DNA of 64,000 bases from Naegleria gruberi. Its lineage: Eukaryota. Made by a program: the position numbers and the translations under genes. The notes beneath the pieces were generated by a model. The model did no database searches and was not told where the DNA came from. It saw nothing but the letters and a program-made list of their open reading frames with translations. This document shows, in pieces, positions 29,244 through 62,151 of this stretch (position 1 is its first letter; each line of letters begins with the position of its first letter). The stretch lies in assembly GCA_000004985.1 (NCBI GenBank), contig GG738850.1, one strand, 5' to 3'.

Positions 29244-32200
29244 TTAACAAATGAAATTCTTAAAGAAATTGGCTAATTCCTCAGCAAGTGGTCGATCTTC
29301 TGGTTCTTTTGATAACATTCTCATGATAATATCAATGATGTCCTCTCTGATACCTGTGTCTTTCAATTCCTTTCTAATTCTATCAAACACCTTTTCTTCA
29401 CCTTCTCCAAGCAATTGTTGTGTAATTGATGCTTGATTCAAACACTTAAACTTGTCACAAATAATTAAATATAAAGTCACACCAAATGAAAATATATCTG
29501 TTGGATAAGAAGTTTGCTTTCCCAAATATAATTCAGGTGAAACATAATAAAGCGTTCCTGTGAAAGTGTGAGCTGTAGCTGCTTGTTTTGAAACACCAAA
29601 ATCTCCAATGGCAACTGAAATCTTTGAGCTTTCTTCATCAAATTCATCAACCATGATATTATTTGCCTTGATGTCACGATGAATGACTTTTTGATTTCTA
29701 TGTAAATAATCAAGACCTTCACCCACTTGATTAATGATTGAAATTAGTAATTGATCAGAAGGAGGTTTTCCATGTTTAAACAAATGATCCAAATCTCCAC
29801 ATTTGTAATATTTCATTGCAAGACAAATGACTTTTTGCTCACTGGCTTGTAAATATTCATAGGATCTTACAAGATTTGGATGTTGGAAGGACAGACATTT
29901 GGAGAATTCACTGCAAATTGCCATGAAATTGTCTTGTGTGGCTGAAATTGCCTTTACAGCAATCAAATCATTCGTATTGACATCAGCGCACAAATAACAT
30001 ATACCAAATCCACCTCTTCCCAATTCCTTTATAATCTTGTAAGTGTGATCCTTTGAGGAGAAGGTATTGTCATCGTTCTTACTAGATTGTTCGCTACCCT
30101 TACTTGATACAATCGTTGGAGGAGGCATGAATGAATTGTCTTGATTCTGATTCAAAAATGCAGTATACGAAAGCTCTGTATTTTGCATAGAAGATCCATT
30201 ATTACTACTGGTTTGTGTTGACCCGCTCTTTTCATTACTAAGGTAATTGGTATATGAAGGCATTGATGAAAATGTTGATAATTGGCCTTGATTCATAGTA
30301 TTTTCAGAACCGTTACTTGTAAAAGTGACAGTGATTAGCTCTTGATTTTGATTCAACTTGATAGCTTGCTCTTTCTTAGATTGTTCCTCCTTAATCTTTA
30401 CCTGTTCTTCCTTTAATCTTGCTTCTTCTTTCGCCTTTCGTTCCATTTCTTCCTGCTTCCTTGCCTTCTCCTCCCTTAATCTGACTTCATCCTTAATCTT
30501 TCTTTCTTCTTCATCCCTCTTTCTTCTTTCTTTATATTCAAACTCCACATCTTTTCTTATTTTTTCTCTTCGTTTTTCTTCCTCATTCTTTTCTTTTCTT
30601 TCTTCCTGATACTTGGCAAACCTCTTTCTGTACATTGAATTTCCAATATACGCGACAGGAACAAAACAAATAATGATAATGGTCAAAAGACTAAAACCTC
30701 CAATCACCCCACCAATGATAGCAGTCATTTGATTTGATGTACTTTCACCAATAACAGTATCACAATATTGGCCACTGGTGCTAGAATTTCTGCAGGAACA
30801 GATGTTGTTTCCTAGACATTTACCACCACCACTACAAACTGTTGGATCATCTGGAGCTAGGCCTTTACAAGTGAATGTATAATTGCAAAATATGCCAACA
30901 TAACCAACAGTACATGAACACTTATCTTGAGAGAGGCAGGAACCATGGCCAGAGCAAACATTTGCATCCACTGGAATCAATCCACCACAAGTATAATTAT
31001 ATTGACACATGTTTCCAGCATAACCTTGATTACATTTACAGGTGTTGTAAGAAGTGCAATCTCCTTTTCCTGAACAAACACTGGTGTCTTCTGCACTTTT
31101 TTCATAGCAAACCGGTTTACCAATTGATTTGCAAATATTTCCAAATAGAAAGAAACCATTCTCATAATCACAGTATGGTTCAAGAACTCGTATCAAGTAG
31201 TGTTCTGAATCGGTAAAGTATAATTTACCATTTTCACCAACAGTTAGCCCATATGGCTCACCAAGCGTAGCCACAGTGGCATCTGATTGATCTCCATTAA
31301 ATTCAAAATTTGAATTTGCACCACAGCGTCCAGCAATTGTTGAAATAGTTCCATTAACGTCAATCCTTCTAATACAATGATTTCCACTATCTGTGAAATA
31401 AATGAAGGATCCATAATATAAAACATTGGATGGTGAGTTAACTTGAGAAGCATCAACTAAAACACTTGCAACACCATCTTCAATTTGAACAATACGATTA
31501 TTACCCGTATCAGCAATCAAATACTTTGTGTCAGAATAGAAATATAAACCCCTAGGTTCTCTAACTTGCATTGCAAAATTATAGGAAGGATCAGTAACAT
31601 AAAACGTTGCAGAAACATTCATTAAGGTCCCAACAATGGTCACAATTTTGGCTGCATTTAAATTTTGCATATTTCTAATATTTTGCCATTCAGAGTAGTA
31701 CAAATTACTGCCAACCATTGCCAATTTCTTTGGGCTACTCAATTGAGTTGGTAAAGTATTATCAGGACTGCTTGTGTCCATTCCATTGCCAGCAAGAGTT
31801 GAAACAACCCCACTTGTGTACTTTCTAATTCTATTATTCTTGGTGTCTGCAATGTAATAAACTCCTCCCTTAGCTACCCAGACATCACTCGGACTGTCGA
31901 ACAATGCTTCATTTCCATCTCTGAATCCAGACTCCCTATAACTTCCAACCACTAACAACCATCAGCACCATCAAGCAATTATTTAAATTAAGAGTTCCTG
32001 TCTAAATCAAACACATACCAATCTCCACTTCATTCTTTGCCAAATTACATTTACTAATAACATGTCCTTGTTCCTCAGCAAAATACAAAGAACCCGAATA
32101 ATAGAACAATCCTCTGGGTGTGCTAACATATCTTGGAGCATTACAAATTGTTGTTAGTTTATATTTTACATTAGCTATATCATCTGCAATACAAAAATCC

Positions 32201-52994: not shown

Positions 52995-55900
52995 CTACCA
53001 GAAAAGGAAACTGAAATTAAGCTTTCTAATAACCCACTTTCTCATTTCATCATAAAAAATCATCAAAAACATCCAAGGAATTGGATACAACCAAAAGTCA
53101 ATAATCATAAATCTCGTATTGAAAATATAATCTCCAATGAATGGAACATAAATTAAAATCACCAACAAGCAAGCAGAATAGATTAATCCAAAATAGGTCA
53201 TTAAATTACCCAATAATCCATGTGTGAAAATGCTCAATCGACGAGTTTTGCAACTGAATAGAGTGGCCCATTGACAAATGACAATTGTCATGAAAAATGC
53301 TGTTTGTGCAGTGCATAGAACGTTATGTTGATACATCTTATCCAAATACATTCCAGTTTCTTCAATGTAAAGCTTTTTATCCGAATTGATATCGAAATAA
53401 TCCTTGCTAGTTGCTTCCCAAAGATATTTTGGTGGAATTCCATAATAAGCAAAGACTAGGAAGTAATTTGTAAAGCATGCAAGAGTTTCAATTACTCCCA
53501 TTTGGAGATAGGAAAAGATTAATAAGGAAGAGCTTACTAGTGGTTGATTCTTGGTACGAGGTGGAATGCTCATAATGTCAGATTCGGCTGTTTCGTAGGC
53601 GAGACTGACTGCACTGATGAGCTCCTTTTTAAGATTTTAAATTTGATATATTTGGATAATATAAAAATTGATAAATTAAGAATTTTCCAAATAAGTAAAA
53701 CTTACAGTTCCCAAATCAACACACAAAATCAATAAACCTGTAATTGGAAGAGGCATGCTAAATACAATAAAAACTAAATAAGGGAAAATTTCTGCAGATA
53801 AATGTGAAACAGTATAAGCAATTGACTTTTTCAAATTGTCAAAAATCAATCTGCCTTCCTTAATACCATTCACAATCGAAGCAAAGTTATCATCCAACAA
53901 GATTATAGCAGCTGCTTCTTTAGAAACAGCACTTCCTGAAATATTCATAGCCACACCTACATCTGCCTTCTTTAGAGCAGGTGAATCATTAGTTCCATCT
54001 CCTGTCACAGCGACACAATGCCCCAATTCTTGGAATTTTGTAACGATAATCAATTTTTGTTGAGGTGAAGTTCTGGCAAAGACAATTTGCTTCTTTTTAA
54101 GAATTTGTTTCCATTCCTTAGATGTCAACTTGTCAATTTCTTCTCCGTGTAAAACAATGGCATCAGCTCTACTGTATGGAATGGTTTTTGGATCACAACT
54201 TTCTTCCTCTGCGATATCGTCAATGGTTCTGGCGTCTGATTCGATAATTCCAACTTGTTTGGCTATGGCTTTGGCTGTGGCTGGGTGATCTCCTGTGACC
54301 ATGACTACTTGAATTCCTGCTTTCTTACATTGTCCAATACATTCAGGAACTCCTACTTTTGGAGGATCAGTCAATCCAGCCATTCCCAAAAAGCAAAGAC
54401 CTTCCATTGGAATGGATTGAGCAATTTGATCAGAAGTTTGTCCAGATTTCTCAATTCTTAATTGTTCCTCAACCAAATGTTCATCAATGAAAAGTTGGGC
54501 AAAACCCAAAACTCTCTCACCCTTAGAAGCAAAGAAATCATAGGCGTCCTTAAAATTTTGTTTCCAATTATCGTCCAATGGTAAAGTTTGTGAGCCAACT
54601 CTGATGTGTGAACAACGTTGAATGATTCTCTCTGGGGCTCCTTTCATGAGCAACAAAACTTTGGAATCAGTACTGGCACTGTCAGTGGTATTGGTAGTCC
54701 ACTGAGGGAGGTGATTATTCTTTCTAATACTTAACATCCACTTGTTTTTAGAATTGAATGGAATGGAATAAAGTTCAGTATAATCAGAACGAAACTCTTC
54801 AATGGTAGCACAATCAGTTCTTGTCTGAATGAATTTAACTAAAGCTGTCTCACTAGCATCTCCTTCACATTCTCTGTCCAAAATTGGTTTTCTCAAATTG
54901 TCTTCCTCTGGCACGAAATAAGTTTTCGAGCAGAGAGCTGAACATCTTCTCAACATTTGATCAGTTGTCAATTGTTCTTCACCTTCTTTTGAGTAACTTG
55001 TTAATGGAGTTAAGGTGCTTGGCTTTTGGGTCATGTATCTGTCTTGGTAATCTACAGAAGAAACTCTTCCATCTACCCATAGCTCAACAACTGTCATTCT
55101 GTTTTGTGTCAAAGTTCCTGTCTTGTCACTACAAATAACTGATGTACTGCCAAGTGTCTCAACATGCTCAAGCTTTTTAACGAGGACATTCACTGCCTTT
55201 AGACGTTTAGCACTGACTGTTAAGCAGACAGTTACTGTAGGAATCAATCCTTGTGGAATGTTAGAAATGATTATACCAATAGCAAATAAAAAATTAGTGA
55301 ACCAACTGTTTCCAATAGCAAATCCTAAACAGAAGAAAATAATGGCCATTGTGAAGGCCAGAACAGCAATCTTTCTAACAAAACTGTCAATTTCTCTTCT
55401 GAGTGGAGTTTTCTTTTCAGTTGAAGCTCCTGCCAATAAAGCAATTTGACCAATGACAGTTTGATTTCCACATCTAATTACGATACCATAACCACTTCCT
55501 TCCAAAGCCAAAGTTCCAAAGAATACCAAATTATTTGTTTCCAAAGGATTCTTTGAAGTCATTTCCACACTCCTTGATTGAGGTTCAGTTTCTCCTGTCA
55601 AGGAAGCATTATCAAGTTTTAGTTGTGAACAAGAAACCACACGTAAATCAGCTGGAATTTTATCACCACCCTCAATTCTAACCAAATCACCCAAAACCAA
55701 TTCTTCAACTGGAATTTTTTGTGGAATTCCATCACGAATCACCATACAGCTGTCACTTTGCATTTGTTGAAAACTCTGCAAAACCTTCTCACTCGATCTT
55801 TCCTGAACCAATGTAATGGTAGCATTCATAATCACAATAAACCACAAGATGACACCCAGAAATATATTCGGATAGGATTCAGTTGTTCTCTCAATGGCAA

Positions 55901-56531
55901 CGTTTAGGAAGGAAAGGAGACCAGCAACGATGAGAAGAAGGGCAAAGAGAGAGGTGAATTGTTCGATGATTTTAAAGATGAAAGGACGTTTTTTGGGTGG
56001 TGTGAGTTGATTGGGACCGTTTACTTTAAGTCTTTCGCTGGCTACTTGTTGGGTGAGACCCTATAATTATATATTCGAATGTACAAAAATATATTAGAAA
56101 GTCCAATACATGAATACATCAATATTCGAAATACTTACTGTTGATTTCTCTGGTTTGTCTTGATTAAAGCTCGTTCCATAAGTTTCGCACACTCTCTCAA
56201 CACTCAACTCGTGTTCAGAAATATCGATTGCTTTCTTCTTTGATTTCTTGATGAATTTCACTTCCTTGGCACTTTTTTGTTTCATGAGTTGAGGGTTTTC
56301 TTGGGCAGTTCGAATAATATCAATCGATTGACGAGCTTCTTCAAAGTACCTTGGAATATCATTCGACAACATTCCACTACTATTCGAAACATTATTCGAA
56401 ACAGCTCCAGTGAGTGTATGACCAATAATATCCAAAGAAGCAGATGATGTAGTTGTACTAGTTTCAATTCTATTGTCCATTTGATGTTTTCCAACATCAA
56501 TAATAATCTCTTCAGTATTGGCAGATGACAT
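52995..56531 (-). CDS. P-type ATPase, type IIC (Na+/K+- or H+/K+-ATPase alpha-subunit-like), ~1120 aa. Three exons, approximately 56531..56139, 56060..53706 and 53621..52995.
   Basis: Motifs ICSDKTGTLTQNRM (phosphorylation site), VVMVTGDHPATAKAIAKQVGII (IIC-specific), VAVTGDGTNDSPALKKADVGVAM, TGE (SLTGETEP). The N-terminus LSVERVCETYGT and the C-terminus YDEMRKWVIRK are like the Na,K-ATPase alpha subunit. Introns are GTAAGT...AATTATAG (78 nt) and GTAAGT...AAGGAG (84 nt, after DLGT), both phase 0. The first ATG taken is MSSANTEE; an upstream exon is possible. Confidence 0.85.
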
Positions 56532-56882
56532 TTTGCATCTTTTTTTTGATTGGTAATAATCAAAACTACAAACTACAAACTTCAAAGTTATTCAAATTTT
56601 TGAAACCTCCCACCTACATGAACCTGCCTCTCACTGCCTCATGACCTTTGTACAAGTCGAAATCCATTGCCTTTACTAATTTGGAAGGAGCGAGGATGAT
56701 GCATCATATGTTGAAATTCGTCTTGTTGGTTTGGTACTGTGGACTTGAAGAGTATGCATCTCCTTGGAACATGCATGACATGGTGGAACTTGATAGCAAC
56801 GTGTCATTATGAAGTTTCGAATAATAATATTCGATTATTATTTATGATGACTTCAAAATTAATATGTGGTAATTATAAGGGG

Positions 56883-59800
56883 TTAGAAACTTAATTTATC
56901 TCTTAATTGAATGAGTTGTTTGGAAATATCGGAAAATTCTGGTCTATTACTTGGATCCATATCCCAACACTGTTGCATGAGTTTCGTATAATCTTCAGTG
57001 ACCGATTTGAGTACTGAAAATGGAGCGCTAGTTTCTTGTCCATACACATTCATCCACTCATGCAACTCCTCGTCATTTCTAAATGGTATAATTGGTCTTT
57101 CATTATTTAAAACTTTCATTGGAACTGTATATGGTTGATCTTCACAAGTTGCCTTTCTGAAATGGTGAATTTTAGAGCTAGCTGCATTCAGATATGGATT
57201 TTCCAAAAAGTATAATTCATACATGACAATTCCAAATGAGTAGACATCAACTTTGTGTGTAATCTTTGTAGATGATCCCTGTAGACCTTCATTTCCAATA
57301 TAAAACAAAGTTCCAACATTGACAGTCATTGAAGTTTGTAATTGATTGTTTCCAATGATTTTGACCAAACCAAAATCACACACCTTACAATTATTGGATT
57401 CATCCAAAAGAATATTAGCTGGTTTCAAATCTCTGTGAATCACTGAGGGTTGAAGGGAGTGTAAATAATTCATTCCATTACTCACTCCAATTAAAATATT
57501 AATCTTTTCCTTCAATGATAAAAATTCAATATTTTGCTTGCATTTGTAAATAATCTTGTCCAAGCTTCCCTTCTTTACAAACTCTGTAATCATATACTTT
57601 GAGGTCTCGGTAATACAGACACCATAGAATGAGACAATATTTGGATGTCTGAGTCTTGAAAGAATGGCAGCTTCCTTTTCAAATTCAAAACTTCCTTCTG
57701 CAGTTTTCAATGATTTAATGGCAACTTCAGTATTGACCCAGAGTCCTTTATAGACATTTCCGTAACCTCCCTCACCAATACGTTTGGTAATTTCAATATC
57801 CTGAACTGGAATAACTACAGAACTTTTAACTGTGTTTTGGTTCATGTGATCGTTTTCCAAAAGTGGAGAATCATAATCTGAATTATGTTTTGATTTGTAA
57901 TAACTTGTTGATCTTGAATGAGTATAATTTGTTTCACTATCACTCATTTCAAAGACAATTTTGTTGTCTAAAATTGTTTTTTCCAAATTCTTTTCTGCAT
58001 TTTCCTTCCTTTTAAGTAATCTTAATTTGGAAATAATTTTAGAAGTGCAATAGAATATTAAAAATCCCAAAATAGTTCCACCCAACAACATGAGAATACC
58101 CACAGGCACTGTGATTGAAATAATGAGAGTTTCCAAATCAATTACATTTTTGCAAACAAAAATTTGTTGTTCATTAACAAATTCTGCAACCATTCGTAAT
58201 GGCATTGGACAAGGCAGCAATGTAATATTAAAATTGGTAGTTACCAACGATTCTGAGATTATTTTCACATTGGCAGTTGTGTTTTCATAGATTGCCTTTG
58301 TGAAATAGACACTTGCAATAAATCGCTTATTTCCAGCAATGGATGAATTAATTTGTAAATAGTCTGAAATTATTTTGAAATTCTCAGATTGGAGTGGTAA
58401 TTCTAAACCCAGGTTTCCCAAAAATCCCATTTCTATTGTAATATTCTGTCCAGATTCCACAGAAGGGCTCACATAGTCAATTGTTAAATTTCTGCCAATT
58501 GATGAAAAGTCATCTCCAAACATGGAAGCTCTATTACCTCTGAATGTATTACCTGGTCCAATTATACTATTATTTACACTTGATACTAAAATTGATTGTT
58601 CAAAAAAGTAGAAGGCACCTCCTGTCATATTTGCAAAATTGTCAATCAGTGTGAAATCTTTAAATAAGTATGGAGATCTATTCCAATACGTGAAATACCC
58701 TACACACAAAGCTCCTCCTCTAATAGCTCTATTTCCAATAAACTCAGCTCCCCCATAAGATCCAGGACCATGTCCAATAGAATGGATGGTTAGAGCTCCA
58801 CCACAACCCAGCAACATTCCAGCGATTGCATTTCCAACCTCTCTCTTGATATAATTTCCAATAAATTTGGTATTTTCAAATTGGGTTACCAACATGTCTT
58901 GACGAATGAATAAGGCACCTCCAGATTGTAAAGATAAATTTTCCTTAAATAGGCAATTAATAAATTTCATGATAAAGCTATTGGTTAAGAAAATAGCACC
59001 ACCAAAAGTATTAGCTCCATTTCTAATAAAAGTTGAATTGGCAATAAAACTTTCAGTAAAATAGGCGTTTTCTATCGAATATTACAAAATTAGAAATATT
59101 TTAGAAATGAACTTACCTGAAAACGAAGCAATACTAATTGCACCACCAAAAGCAATAGCACGATTGTCTGCGAATGTGCAATTATCCATATTTAGTGAAA
59201 CAATATCACGGAATCCCAAAACTCCTCCTTCATTACCAATATTTCTATAAAACTCACTGTGATTAATAATAGTTTCAGAAACGGATGTAATCTCAACCAC
59301 ACTCTTAACATTCTTATAAGTGTCCAATACATTACAATCAAATATCGTTGTATATTCTATCATTAAATTTAGTATAGCTCCCAATTGTGCAAACAAATCC
59401 AAATTCTGAGCTACACAATTTGTAATTTTAACCTTATCAACAAATTCCACAGCAAGTGCAGGTAAGTAATATTTTGAAATTTGAAACTTGGTGTTAGAAA
59501 ATAGAGTTGAATCAGCTTTTGTGATTACAATATTCGATCCAATACAAATCGAGTCCTTAATCTCCAATGTCTTTAATCCAACAGCTCTAAAAGATAAAAA
59601 ATCAAAGTAGGTTTCGGATACCTCAACATGTCCACAATTTGCAAAGGTAAAAGTAAATCCAATTGCACCTACAAAGACAACATTCTTAAATTTGACAGTT
59701 TTCACATTTGAAAAATCCAAACTGTAAGCTTCTTTAGTACAGTAGACTTCTTCGAATATGACATCTCCAGAGGAAAAGTTGTAAACTTGATAATTAGCTA

Positions 59801-60600
59801 CAGAAATTCTGGAAAATGTCATTATGGAATTGTAAATGCCAAAATTGTAATTTAGTGAACTTGTCATGGCAGCATTTAATCTCAAATCATGAAAATAAAA
59901 CCTTGTCATGTCGTTTCTGATAAGAAACAATGATGTACCAAACTGATTACATGAAAGAACATTGAAATAACTCTCTGAATAAATCTCAAATAAATAATTA
60001 ATATTACTATATATAGGTGTGACCATTTCATTGTTACAGAAACCTGTCAATTTTCCTGTAAACTCCAATTGTACATGAATATTGAACTGTTGCTGATTGA
60101 ATATCGATTCATTCATTGATCGTGTCCAATTCATCACCAGCACATCCAATCGGGCAAGAGCTTGTGAAATCGATGGACATGGATACTGTGAATTTTCACA
60201 TGTGGCATTATCCACACCCAACTGACTCGACAAGTACAGTGTAAATGTTTGATAGGGTCTCGATTCTAACTCTACTCTAAAGTATTTGAGTGCTTCATTT
60301 TCCGAATCAGTTGTCGAACGTGTTCTACTCTTCCTTGTTGATGCCAAATATTCATCAAAATTATTTATGCTATATTCATCATGGTTATTGACATGTTGTT
60401 GTGTCCACTGATGTGATGGTTCGTTGCTGTTGCTGTTCGGCACCTGGTTTGATGAATGCAGTTAAATCCACATTATGTAAATCATGAAAAGTCACATCAT
60501 GATATTGTTGTACTGTTCCTAGGACAACAGTAATGAGAAGCAACAGAAGAAGGAAATAATGATGAACTGTAGAATGGCCGAGCAGAGGATTTGCTGCCAT
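56883..60600 (-). CDS. Receptor-like tyrosine-kinase-like (TKL) kinase with a Pmp-repeat / right-handed beta-helix ectodomain, TM and C-terminal kinase. Three exons, approximately 60600..60514 (signal peptide), 60443..59117 and 59071..56883.
   Basis: Ectodomain GGA/FxxN repeats (NCTFADNRAIAFGGAISIAS, SGGALFIRQDM, GGALCVGYF, TGGAFYFFEQS). TM VPVGILMLLGGTILGFLIFYC. Kinase motifs GEGGYGNVYKG, VAIKSL, HRDLKPANILLDESNNCKVCDFGLVK. The second intron GTAAGT...TTCGATAG (45 nt, phase 1) is firm. The first intron (GTACAA...CCAG, 70 nt) joining the signal-peptide exon MAANPLLGHSTVHHYFLLLLLLITVVLGT is tentative. Confidence 0.65.
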
Positions 60601-60909: not shown

Positions 60910-62151
60910 TTACAGTTTAAGGTTCTCTGACAATGCTTCAGAATAGTCCAATTTGAGTTTTCTAACTTGTTCTGGATTTTGTGTAATTAAATTGTTGCCA
61001 TGAGCCATAATTATATGCTCCCAATTCCAAGTGAAGATTTTGGTAAAATCCTGAACTGCTTGATTCTTGTCAGTAATTAAAGCTCTAAATGATTTTGGTA
61101 TTGTTGGTCCTTTTCCGTACAAATCCAATAATTTTCCATAATGTACACTGACTGGTGTATGATTTGGATCATCAACTTTGATAGTTATTGGTTCCTTCCA
61201 ATCCATTACAGTATCGCAAGCTATCAAGGTCTTTGTTGGCTTGTGACACATTACAACTTCATTCAAATTCAATCCAGTCACAACTTGTAAATCAAATTGT
61301 GTTTGCCAATCACGAGGCCATTCTCTTGGAGTTGTGCTATTGTCTGAAGGGAGTGTGTAAATGCATTTGGCAACATCTTCTTTCTTCAATTCTGGATATT
61401 CGGCCGATAATTTGGAATATAAATTATCAATCACTGTTTGCTTGTTTGGATATGGACAATAGATGAATGGTTTTTCCAACTTTCCATCCTTATTTTCCAA
61501 TATAAAGTATTTCAAGTATTGACTAGCATACTTGAGATGTGAACTGTTTGGTAAAATAATTAATTTCACCTTTCCCAATCTCTTCAATTCATTCTTTACA
61601 ATATCTGTCAATTCAACTGGATTATATATCATCAATTCCGATTTTCCCAAATCAACCACACACATATTGCTACTCATTGCAATAGGTGGCATGCTCATTT
61701 GAAAGTGATGTCTATAGGTAGAGAGTATTTCCTTCTTGGTCTTTCCATCCCTATGAACACAAGTAAACGACTTGTCATTAAACTTTTCATGAGAAACCTT
61801 CTCTGTTACTTTGGCATAATAATACCCTACAGTGAGTAAGCCACCAATCACTCCACCAATCATTAATAATTTCCCAAAGAATGATTTCTTCTTCTTATTG
61901 CCATTATTATTATTAGTAGAATTTTGTTTTTCTTGTTGTTTCTCTTGTTGTTGATGATTATTCAATGTATTGGCCACTGATGATCGGATTGGAGAAATCT
62001 TCATTGAAAATCCTCTTTCCATCATTCTATTCTGTAATGATAAAGATGATTTAGTTGCAACACCATTCATCATCAATTGTTGCACCACTTGTTTAATTTG
62101 ACTTGAATTCATCAAACTCTCCACGAGTTTCAAATTATTTCTTCTCATCAT
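60910..62151 (-). CDS. Hypothetical single-pass membrane-anchored protein (413 aa)
   Basis: Real ATG (ATGATGAGAAGA). N-terminal Q/N-rich segment, then the TM FFGKLLMIGGVIGGLLTVGYYYA, then a ~300-aa globular region of unknown family. Confidence 0.45.
   Translation of the reverse strand: MMRRNNLKLVESLMNSSQIKQVVQQLMMNGVATKSSLSLQNRMMERGFSMKISPIRSSVANTLNNHQQQEKQQEKQNSTNNNNGNKKKKSFFGKLLMIGGVIGGLLTVGYYYAKVTEKVSHEKFNDKSFTCVHRDGKTKKEILSTYRHHFQMSMPPIAMSSNMCVVDLGKSELMIYNPVELTDIVKNELKRLGKVKLIILPNSSHLKYASQYLKYFILENKDGKLEKPFIYCPYPNKQTVIDNLYSKLSAEYPELKKEDVAKCIYTLPSDNSTTPREWPRDWQTQFDLQVVTGLNLNEVVMCHKPTKTLIACDTVMDWKEPITIKVDDPNHTPVSVHYGKLLDLYGKGPTIPKSFRALITDKNQAVQDFTKIFTWNWEHIIMAHGNNLITQNPEQVRKLKLDYSEALSENLKL

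What the first reader, a model, noticed from the sequence alone, without database searches (positions are those of the whole stretch)
56883..60600. Second receptor-like kinase with a Pmp-repeat (GGA/FxxN) parallel beta-helix ectodomain and a non-canonical first intron
The extracellular part is built from chlamydial-Pmp-type repeats that form a right-handed beta-helix, followed by a TM and a TKL-type kinase. The only way I can attach the upstream signal peptide is a 70-nt intron with a GTACAA donor. Either the splice site is unusual or the gene model is wrong. Together with the NHL/EGF kinase this gives two structurally unrelated single-pass receptor kinases within 30 kb.
Basis: partly seen in the sequence, partly recalled or inferred. 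Interest (0 to 1): 0.55.

Follow-up and report, generated by a model that had tools for sequence, protein, structure and literature searches.

The report
Naegleria beta-helix receptor kinase, frameshifted start
This is a real but mis-annotated Naegleria gruberi gene for a cell-surface receptor kinase whose outer part is a bacterial-adhesin-like beta-helix, and the odd "first intron" is most likely a way of reading around a 5-base gap in this strain's sequence.

Summary
The window comes from Naegleria gruberi. On the minus strand, 60600-56883 holds one gene for a type I single-pass receptor-like kinase. From the N terminus it has a signal peptide, a linker, a right-handed parallel beta-helix of about 500 residues, a stalk, a Cys loop, a TM segment, a conserved juxtamembrane helix and a TKL-type Ser/Thr kinase. 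The last 7-8 coils of the helix carry FxxN/GGA(I,L) Pmp-type repeats. Fold, repeats, kinase class and the second (NHL/EGF) receptor kinase 25 kb away are all confirmed. The 45-nt second intron (GTAAGT..AG) is sound.

The 70-nt "GTACAA" first intron is not supported. A 99%-identical environmental contig has 5 extra bases (AGGAA) 21 nt after the proposed acceptor. There the ORF runs unbroken from the same ATG into the ectodomain, and splicing those 70 nt would give a stop after 56 codons. Every credible intron in this window and in a N. lovaniensis relative starts GTAAGT or GTATGT. That relative encodes signal peptide and ectodomain in one exon.

So the reference strain most likely carries a 5-bp frameshifting deletion, or an assembly error. 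The reference annotation keeps only a 320-aa kinase fragment. The family is small, restricted to Naegleria and Willaertia, and uncharacterised. Interest is modest.

The parts
60514..60600 (-). Start codon and signal peptide (MAANPLLGHSTVHHYFLLLLLLITVVLGT).
   Evidence: It is the first ATG after an in-frame stop 6 codons upstream. The hydrophobic peak at residues 12-30 is the second strongest in the protein. L001 has the same ATG.
60444..60513 (-). It is most likely coding sequence (QQYHDVTFHDLHNVDLTAFIKPG) of the intact allele.
   Evidence: It is open in the ATG frame. P0001/L001 translate it as part of a 507-aa ORF. GC is 31%. No GTA[AT]G donor lies anywhere in 60950-60100 on this strand.
60423..60424 (-). 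Site of the 5-nt indel (AGGAA is present in L001 and absent here). It shifts the ATG frame to a TAA whose last base is 60385.
   Evidence: Alignments. It is the only coding indel between the two sequences that is not a multiple of 3.
59117..60443 (-). It encodes the low-complexity linker, an N-cap with two Cys, and the N-terminal about 350 residues of the beta-helix, up to the first Pmp-type coils.
59072..59116 (-). Genuine 45-nt spliceosomal intron, phase 1, GTAAGT...ATAG.
   Evidence: It joins two long ORFs in frame and has a consensus donor. It is conserved in L001 with one substitution. Read unspliced, it hits a stop after 11 codons.
58560..59071 (-). Pmp-type FxxN/GGA(I,L) coils that complete the beta-helix (about residues 472-640).
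58128..58559 (-). Membrane-proximal stalk (beta-rich, modelled with low confidence), ending in a conserved C-P-x(17)-C loop at Cys759 and Cys778.
   Evidence: pLDDT 34-59. The C, P and C are invariant in alignment A2 and the two Cys are nearly invariant in alignment A6.
57954..58127 (-). Transmembrane helix (residues 787-812) and the conserved juxtamembrane helix KLRLLKRKENAEKNLEKTILDNKIVF.
   Evidence: Strongest Kyte-Doolittle peak. The A-E pair is nearly invariant across the family. The alignment with P0248 runs through it.
56886..57797 (-). TKL-type Ser/Thr protein kinase domain (residues 897-1200) with an insert before helix I. The stop codon is at 56883-56885.
   Evidence: Pfam E=2.6e-54. 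It is 100% identical to the N. gruberi 'predicted protein' P0017. The best single-domain PDB matches are CTR1, TAK1, TNNI3K and ZAK.

Best explanation
The locus is one Naegleria gruberi gene for a type I, single-pass receptor-like Ser/Thr kinase. The product is about 1225 aa in the intact allele.

Outer part: a signal peptide and a disordered linker lead into a right-handed parallel beta-helix of about 500 residues. Its membrane-proximal coils are Pmp-type FxxN/GGA repeats. A stalk with a disulfide-type Cys loop follows.

Inner part: a conserved juxtamembrane helix and an apparently active TKL-group kinase.

Shown:
- the domain order
- the fold
- the kinase class
- one genuine 45-nt intron
- membership of a small family specific to Naegleria and Willaertia

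This reference-strain sequence lacks 5 bases (AGGAA) at 60423. That breaks the frame 21 nt after the supposed acceptor, counting to position 60423. The GT..AG pair is therefore a chance frame-fixer, not an intron.

Inferred:
- The 5-base gap is either a real null or hypomorphic allele of the NEG-M haplotype that was assembled, or an assembly error.
- The receptor works like other single-pass receptor kinases. A ligand, plausibly a surface glycan or protein of prey bacteria, substrate or other amoebae, binds the long beta-helix face. This clusters receptors, and the kinase domains trans-phosphorylate and signal inward.
For: Organism: the kinase part is 100% identical to 'predicted protein [Naegleria gruberi]'.

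One gene:
- The Pmp coils, stalk, TM and kinase lie in a single 728-codon exon.
- That exon aligns collinearly with N. lovaniensis C9374_000528 over 791 columns (34% identity, E=4e-125).
- Exon 2 aligns to the preceding part of the same protein.

Repeats:
- TIGR01376 scores above its cut-off.
- The family profile finds PF02415/PF13229 proteins down to E=7e-52.
- 18 of 32 relatives match PF02415.

Kinase:
- GxGxxG, VAIK, the alphaC Glu, HRDLKPAN and DFG are all present (sequence).
- CTR1, TAK1, TNNI3K and ZAK are the best single-domain PDB hits.

Against intron 1:
- L001 carries AGGAA at 60423 and reads through from the same ATG.
- Removing the 70 nt from L001 gives a stop after 56 aa.
- This is the only coding indel between the two sequences that is not a multiple of 3.
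- All 7 joins between long ORFs in the window have a GTAAGT or GTATGT donor, although these hexamers occur only 32 times on both strands.
- All 6 annotated introns of the N. lovaniensis relative start GTAAGT (5) or GTATGT (1). Its residues 1-930, signal peptide included, are in one exon.
- No GTA[AT]G lies between 60950 and 60100.
- Several other GT..AG pairs would also restore the frame.

Selection: 14 synonymous against 8 non-synonymous differences from L001.
Against: No transcript data could be consulted, so splicing of the 70 nt in strain NEG-M is not excluded directly.

The polarity of the 5-nt indel is unknown, because no outgroup was found.

Apart from this one site the NEG-M copy is fully open (442 + 728 codons). 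That is what one would expect if the gene is still expressed in some way, for example through a cryptic intron or from an intact second haplotype.

The single-sequence PF02415 score is below Pfam's gathering threshold.

Foldseek against the PDB gave no significant hit for the Pmp part.

Both AF2 models have a mean pLDDT of only about 65.

The APE motif is degenerate (GNE), so full catalytic competence is assumed, not shown.

The ligand and the downstream pathway are pure inference.
Confidence: 0.8

Rival explanations
1. A real 70-nt intron with a non-consensus GTACAA donor is spliced in NEG-M and restores the frame. The L001 allele, with 5 more bases, makes the protein from unspliced mRNA, or is itself the broken one.
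For: GT..AG ends, a 70-nt length within the local range of 43-151 nt, a possible TTAAC branch site about 22 nt from the acceptor, and correct frame restoration. The rest of the NEG-M gene has no other lesion. Differences from L001 are mostly synonymous.
Against: The donor differs from the local consensus at positions +4 to +6. All 13 other introns examined start GTAAGT or GTATGT. The stretch is stop-free in the ATG frame and is coding in L001. If the intron were ancestral, L001 would need a 5-nt insertion that by chance restores an open frame through an unspliced intron. The closest annotated relative has no intron there. Several other chance GT..AG pairs restore the frame equally well.
Confidence: 0.1
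2. The 5-base gap is only an error of the reference assembly. The real NEG-M sequence equals L001 at this point, and the gene is intact and has no intron there.
For: This is a sub-case of the best explanation. The gene is otherwise intact and under purifying selection. The gap lies in a CAA/CAG/GAA-rich low-complexity stretch.
Against: The two sequences differ by about a dozen other small indels in non-coding DNA, plus one in-frame 3-nt indel in the neighbouring gene, so real indel polymorphism is common between them. No independent NEG-M data could be found. Exact look-ups of the frameshift-specific 71-aa ORF and of the exon 2 ORF returned nothing, which neither supports nor refutes.
Confidence: 0.25
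3. There are two separate genes, as the reference annotation implies: a stand-alone cytosolic kinase (the 320-aa model starting at Met881) and an unrelated or non-coding upstream region.
For: The only reference protein found for this locus is the 320-aa kinase model P0017. No reference protein covers the ectodomain.
Against: The Pmp coils, stalk, TM segment and kinase lie in one uninterrupted 728-codon frame. The same order is found in N. lovaniensis, N. fowleri, N. gruberi and Willaertia proteins. Family gene models are often visibly truncated or fused, for example P0275.
Confidence: 0.03

Closest known systems
Naegleria/Willaertia uncharacterised Pmp-repeat receptor kinases: N. lovaniensis C9374_000528 (XP_044552356.1), N. 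gruberi NAEGRDRAFT_65139 (XP_002679420.1), N. fowleri FDP41_008148, Willaertia magna ABK040_013358 and others
   Same: Same order of parts: signal peptide, N-cap with two Cys, beta-helix with FxxN/GGA coils, stalk, CP...C loop, TM, K-E-x-AEK juxtamembrane helix, TKL kinase. Alignment is collinear at 34% identity over 791 columns.
   Different: This gene's ectodomain is not in any protein set searched. Only 28 cluster representatives match its stalk/TM region, the best at 32-33% identity. Intron positions differ: here one intron lies in the beta-helix, while the N. lovaniensis gene has six in the kinase part. None of these proteins has been studied.
Chlamydial polymorphic membrane proteins (PmpD, Pmp21; PF02415, TIGR01376)
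   Same: FxxN and GGA(I,L,V) tetrapeptides recur once per coil of a right-handed beta-helix (PMC11166332, PMC10715098). These are surface-exposed adhesins, and Pmp21 binds EGFR (PMC2997323, PMC3635982).
   Different: Pmps are bacterial type V autotransporters with a C-terminal beta-barrel and a Pmp middle domain. Neither is present here. Here the helix is anchored by one TM helix and joined to a eukaryotic kinase. Only about 7-8 of roughly 20 coils carry the motifs.
TKL-group kinases: plant Raf-like MAP3K CTR1/EDR1, TAK1, ZAK, TNNI3K
   Same: These are the best-scoring single-domain relatives among solved structures (E=1e-40 to 1e-31) and among named proteins. They share the HRDLKxxN catalytic loop and the CW...P..RP.F motif of the TK/TKL branch.
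   Different: Those kinases are cytosolic. This one is a receptor, has an insert before helix I, and has GNE in place of APE.
Protist transmembrane kinases, such as the single-pass S/T/Y-kinases expanded in amoebae (PMC10463195)
   Same: Single-pass receptor S/T/Y kinases with lineage-specific ectodomains recombined onto conserved kinase domains.
   Different: That survey does not mention Naegleria, Pmp repeats or beta-helix ectodomains.
Streptococcus pneumoniae PfbA and other beta-helix adhesins, lyases and tailspikes
   Different: About 10% sequence identity. No catalytic residues were identified. The membrane context is different.

Membership tests
Pmp-type repeat proteins (PF02415 Chlam_PMP / TIGR01376 POMP_repeat) | HMM match at or above the curated threshold | tested here: inconclusive
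   PF02415 scores 16.8 bits against a gathering score of 20.6 (E=0.0079), so it fails. TIGR01376 scores 20.5 bits against a cut-off of 15, so it passes. A family profile reaches PF02415 proteins at E=7e-52, and 18 of 32 relatives match PF02415.
Pmp-type repeat proteins (PF02415 Chlam_PMP / TIGR01376 POMP_repeat) | Alternating FxxN and GGA(I,L,V) tetrapeptides at regular spacing | tested here: met
   FxxN followed 8-9 residues later by GGA(I/L/F) at residues 453, 486, 513, 582 and 613. Weaker copies lie at 427 and 541. The period is 27-41 residues.
Pmp-type repeat proteins (PF02415 Chlam_PMP / TIGR01376 POMP_repeat) | Repeats form the coils of a right-handed parallel beta-helix | tested here: met
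Chlamydial Pmp autotransporters (type V secretion) | C-terminal autotransporter beta-barrel and Pmp middle domain | tested here: not met
   There is no PF03797 or PF07548 match. The C-terminal half is a TM helix plus a protein kinase. The protein is therefore Pmp-repeat-like, not a Pmp.
TKL-group protein kinases | Closest to TKL kinases rather than TK or other groups | tested here: met
   CTR1 scores 142.6 bits, TAK1 124, TNNI3K 115 and ZAK 112. ABL and SRC score 110-116, and EGFR about 79 per domain. The named top hits are CTR1/EDR1-like. The margin over TK is small.
TKL-group protein kinases | Catalytic motifs intact, with a Ser/Thr-type catalytic loop | tested here: met
   GEGGYG, VAIK, the EKEAAIL Glu, HRDLKPAN (not HRDLAARN) and DFG are present. 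APE is replaced by GNE (sequence; alignment).
Type I single-pass receptor kinases | N-terminal signal peptide, one TM helix, extracellular domain N-terminal to the kinase | tested here: inconclusive
   The TM helix (787-812) and the domain order are clear. In this window the signal peptide is in frame with the ectodomain only if 70 nt are spliced out or 5 nt are restored. In L001 it is in frame directly.
Spliceosomal intron (the 70-nt candidate, 60513-60444) | GT..AG ends and frame restoration | tested here: met
Spliceosomal intron (the 70-nt candidate, 60513-60444) | Donor matches the species consensus | tested here: not met
   The candidate donor is GTACAA. The donors are GTAAGT or GTATGT in 7 of 7 window introns and 6 of 6 N. 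lovaniensis introns.
Spliceosomal intron (the 70-nt candidate, 60513-60444) | Compatible with close relatives (an intron is needed or conserved) | tested here: not met
   L001 reads through the stretch and would be truncated by splicing. N. lovaniensis has no intron in residues 1-930.
Spliceosomal intron (the 70-nt candidate, 60513-60444) | Spliced reads in RNA | not testable with these tools
   No transcript data are available. Exact look-ups found nothing.

The most novel reading that the evidence does not exclude
In strain NEG-M a real 5-bp frameshifting deletion is rescued by use of a cryptic, non-consensus GTACAA..AG intron that overlaps what is coding sequence in other strains. This would be a very recent 'intronisation' event caught as a polymorphism within one species. 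The gene involved belongs to an unstudied heterolobosean receptor family that couples a bacterial-adhesin-type beta-helix to a TKL kinase.
Probability: 0.07. Interest if true: 0.7.

Novelty: new member of a known kind. Interest (0 to 1): 0.3.

Why it matters
There are three practical points.

1. The N. gruberi reference annotation reduces a receptor of about 1200 residues to a 320-aa 'predicted protein'. Several sister gene models in Naegleria are truncated or fused. Counts of receptor kinases in Naegleria, and comparisons of sensing repertoires with the pathogen N. fowleri, therefore understate this family.

2. The family joins a beta-helix of the kind bacteria and phages use to grip surfaces and glycans to a eukaryotic kinase. 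That makes it a reasonable candidate sensor for prey, substrate or self-recognition in a bacterivorous amoeba. It is small enough (28 cluster representatives) to study.

3. The case is a caution for gene modelling. A GT..AG pair that repairs a frame is weak evidence for an intron when a small indel explains the same break.

Nothing here overturns current views. Receptor kinases with lineage-specific ectodomains are already known to be common in protists.

Tried and rejected
- A scan of JGI metagenome contigs for relatives of exon 2 found no relative.
- Exact look-ups of four window ORFs all returned nothing, so there was no independent NEG-M evidence for or against the 5-bp gap. The ORFs were the DUF4336 neighbour, the exon 3 ORF, the frameshift-specific 71-aa ORF and the exon 2 ORF from its first Met.
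- Exact look-ups of P0017 and P0024 were also not on record.
I folded the two exon-encoded halves separately instead.
- Literature searches for the ENA project accession, for Naegleria with Chlam_PMP, and for Naegleria with receptor kinase, Pmp or beta-helix found nothing specific. The 2010 genome paper is not held.
- I considered bacterial contamination or a bacterial Pmp gene. I rejected this because the Pmp coils share an exon with a eukaryotic kinase and the gene has a spliceosomal intron.
- I considered whether the indel showed microhomology or tandem duplication that would reveal its direction. It shows neither, so the polarity is left open.
Full report
**What is in the sequence**

On the minus strand there is an ATG at 60600. 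It is followed by a 29-codon hydrophobic N terminus, a 442-codon open frame (60443-59117) and a 728-codon open frame (59069-56886, stop codon at 56883-56885). The last two frames are joined by a 45-nt intron at 59116-59072. It has a textbook GTAAGT donor and an ATAG acceptor, and it is phase 1. Read unspliced, it runs into a stop after 11 codons.

The first two pieces are in different frames.

**Organism and annotation**

The C-terminal 320 residues are 100% identical to a 'predicted protein [Naegleria gruberi]' from a 707-kb scaffold (P0017). The window is therefore N. gruberi reference sequence.

A search with the whole ectodomain found no N. gruberi reference protein. The reference proteome therefore holds only the kinase fragment of this gene.

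**Domain architecture**

- Pfam finds the kinase at residues 897-1189 (E about 1e-54).
- The strongest hydrophobic segment is at 787-812, and the next strongest is the N-terminal signal peptide.
- The ectodomain has FxxN followed 8-9 residues later by GGA(I/L/F) at residues 453, 486, 513, 582 and 613, with weaker copies at 427 and 541.

On the single sequence PF02415 scores 16.8 bits, below its gathering score of 20.6. TIGR01376 POMP_repeat passes at 20.5 bits against a cut-off of 15. A profile built from five family ectodomains retrieves 173 proteins, almost all carrying PF02415 and/or PF13229, down to E=7e-52. Of 32 relatives, 18 match PF02415 and 25 carry the kinase.

**Fold**

The spliced sequence could not be submitted, so the two exon-encoded halves were modelled with 48-49-sequence alignments.

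The whole region from about residue 150 to 640 is thus one beta-helix, and only its last third shows Pmp motifs. This agrees with published work showing that Pmp tetrapeptides mark the coils of a beta-helix (PMC11166332, PMC10715098).

**Kinase class**

The best single-domain matches among solved structures are CTR1 (E=1.3e-40), TAK1, TNNI3K and ZAK, all TKL group by the Manning classification (my own knowledge). ABL and SRC follow closely. Named database hits are dominated by plant CTR1/EDR1 Raf-like kinases.

The catalytic loop is HRDLKPAN, the Ser/Thr type. GxGxxG, VAIK, the alphaC Glu and DFG are present. APE is GNE, whereas relatives have APE or ANE. 'TKL-type' is supported, and the kinase is probably active.

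**One gene, and its family**

The exon 3 product aligns collinearly with N. lovaniensis C9374_000528 (P0248, 1273 aa) from its Pmp coils to its C terminus (34% identity, E=4e-125). Exon 2 aligns to the part just before that (residues 120-503).

A full HMMER scan of 1.84 billion representatives with the family-specific stalk, TM and juxtamembrane region found only 28 proteins. The named ones are from N. lovaniensis, N. fowleri, N. gruberi and Willaertia magna, all 'hypothetical'.

Shared hallmarks are a membrane-proximal C-P...C loop and a juxtamembrane K-E-x-A-E-K...I-x-D-K helix.

I found no paper describing this architecture. A survey of protist transmembrane kinases shows that single-pass S/T/Y kinases with lineage-specific ectodomains are common (PMC10463195).

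**The first intron**

Five lines of evidence bear on it.

1. An environmental contig (L001, ENA ERZ929261) is 99% identical over 4.8 kb (34 substitutions). At window position 60423, 21 nt downstream of the proposed acceptor, it has five extra bases (AGGAA). With them, the ORF runs without interruption from the same ATG, through the '70-nt intron', into the ectodomain (P0001). If the same 70 nt are removed from L001, the frame breaks and stops after 56 codons.

2. Between the two sequences small indels are frequent in non-coding DNA. In coding DNA there is only an in-frame 3-nt indel in the neighbouring gene, plus this 5-nt one.

3. Naegleria donors are strongly constrained.
   - All seven joins between long ORFs in this window have a GTAAGT or GTATGT donor within 45 nt of the ORF end. 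These hexamers occur only 32 times on both strands of 64 kb.
   - All six annotated introns of the N. lovaniensis relative begin GTAAGT (5) or GTATGT (1).
   - GTACAA departs from this at three positions.
   - No GTA[AT]G exists anywhere between 60950 and 60100 on the gene strand.

4. In the N. lovaniensis gene, residues 1-930, signal peptide included, are in one exon.

5. Seven GT..AG pairs of 50-125 nt downstream of the signal peptide's hydrophobic core restore the frame, and more do at greater lengths. Finding one is therefore expected by chance.

Taken together, the parsimonious reading is that the stretch is coding. This sequence has a 5-bp frameshifting gap that ends the ATG frame at a TAA (60385-60387) after 71 codons.

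**What the gap means**

The gene is otherwise intact. It differs from L001 by 14 synonymous and 8 non-synonymous changes, which fits purifying selection until recently. Three possibilities remain.

- The gap is a real, recent null allele on the assembled haplotype. Naegleria is described as mainly a heterozygous diploid (PMC9928731), so an intact second allele is plausible.
- The gap is an assembly error.
- The gap is real and is rescued by cryptic splicing. This is the least likely option.

I could not find independent NEG-M data or an outgroup, so this stays open. RNA-seq and read mapping would settle it.

**Function (inferred)**

By analogy with beta-helix adhesins and glycan-binding proteins (PfbA, Pmp21, tailspikes, PMC2997323, PMC3635982) and with single-pass receptor kinases in general, I suggest the following. 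The long helix binds an extracellular polymer or surface protein. This clusters receptors, and the TKL domains trans-phosphorylate. None of this was tested.

**The second receptor kinase**

ORF 29244-31958(-) carries NHL repeats, an EGF_2 domain, a hydrophobic segment and a kinase. Its kinase is only 32% identical to this one. It is not surprising in a genome credited with 265 protein kinases (PMC9928731, citing Fritz-Laylin 2010).

**Verdict**

This is a real gene with a correctly recognised architecture. It is a new, unannotated member of a small uncharacterised heterolobosean receptor-kinase family. The 'non-canonical intron' is most likely an artefact of a 5-bp indel. Interest is modest (0.3).

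Noticed in passing
window 56886-57845 (-): The only N. gruberi reference protein for this locus is a 320-aa 'predicted protein' starting at Met881 (P0017). The 880 residues upstream (signal peptide, beta-helix, TM) are not in any reference protein found, so the reference gene model is truncated.
   Followed up: yes
window 29244-32018 (-): The second receptor kinase (NHL repeats, EGF_2, hydrophobic segment, kinase). It has an upstream exon joined by a 67-nt GTATGT..TGTTAG intron at 32018-31952. Its kinase is only 32% identical to the Pmp-type one.
   Followed up: partly
window 53622-56585 (-): The neighbouring P-type cation ATPase gene (E1-E2_ATPase, Cation_ATPase, Hydrolase) is split by at least two GTAAGT introns, at 56138-56061 and at 53705-53625 or 53705-53622. 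These were used here only as examples of the local donor consensus.
   Followed up: partly
L001 (ENA ERZ929261 contig k127_261555), equivalent to window 62819-58043: A contig labelled as a metagenome carries N. gruberi-like DNA 99% identical to the reference. It differs by 34 substitutions and about a dozen small indels, including an in-frame 3-nt indel in the DUF4336 gene at window position 61959. The sample's nature could not be traced.
   Followed up: partly
P0275 (N. fowleri FDP41_011633, 973 aa): This family member's gene model looks like a fusion. A truncated receptor kinase is followed by a mitochondrial branched-chain ketoacid dehydrogenase kinase (BCDHK_Adom3 plus HATPase_c). P0255 and P0021 end inside the kinase domain. 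Family gene models are often faulty.
   Followed up: partly
window 57954-58200 (-); alignment A6: Two family hallmarks flank the TM helix: a C-P-x(n)-C loop just outside the membrane, and a K-E-x-A-E-K-x-[IL]-E-x-K-[IL]-x-D-K helix just inside it. The two Cys and the A-E pair are nearly invariant in 32 sequences. Their role is unknown.
   Followed up: no
window 57290-57320 (-), protein residues about 1060-1070: The APE motif of the activation segment reads GNE here (GTLFYIGNEGL). Relatives have MAPE or MANE. This may affect substrate binding or activity.
   Followed up: no
L002 (Logan SRR3322357 contig, P0004, 1320 aa): A distant protein (23% identity) from an unidentified organism has the same Pmp/Beta_helix, TM and kinase order. 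The architecture may therefore exist outside Naegleria and Willaertia, or may have arisen twice.
   Followed up: no
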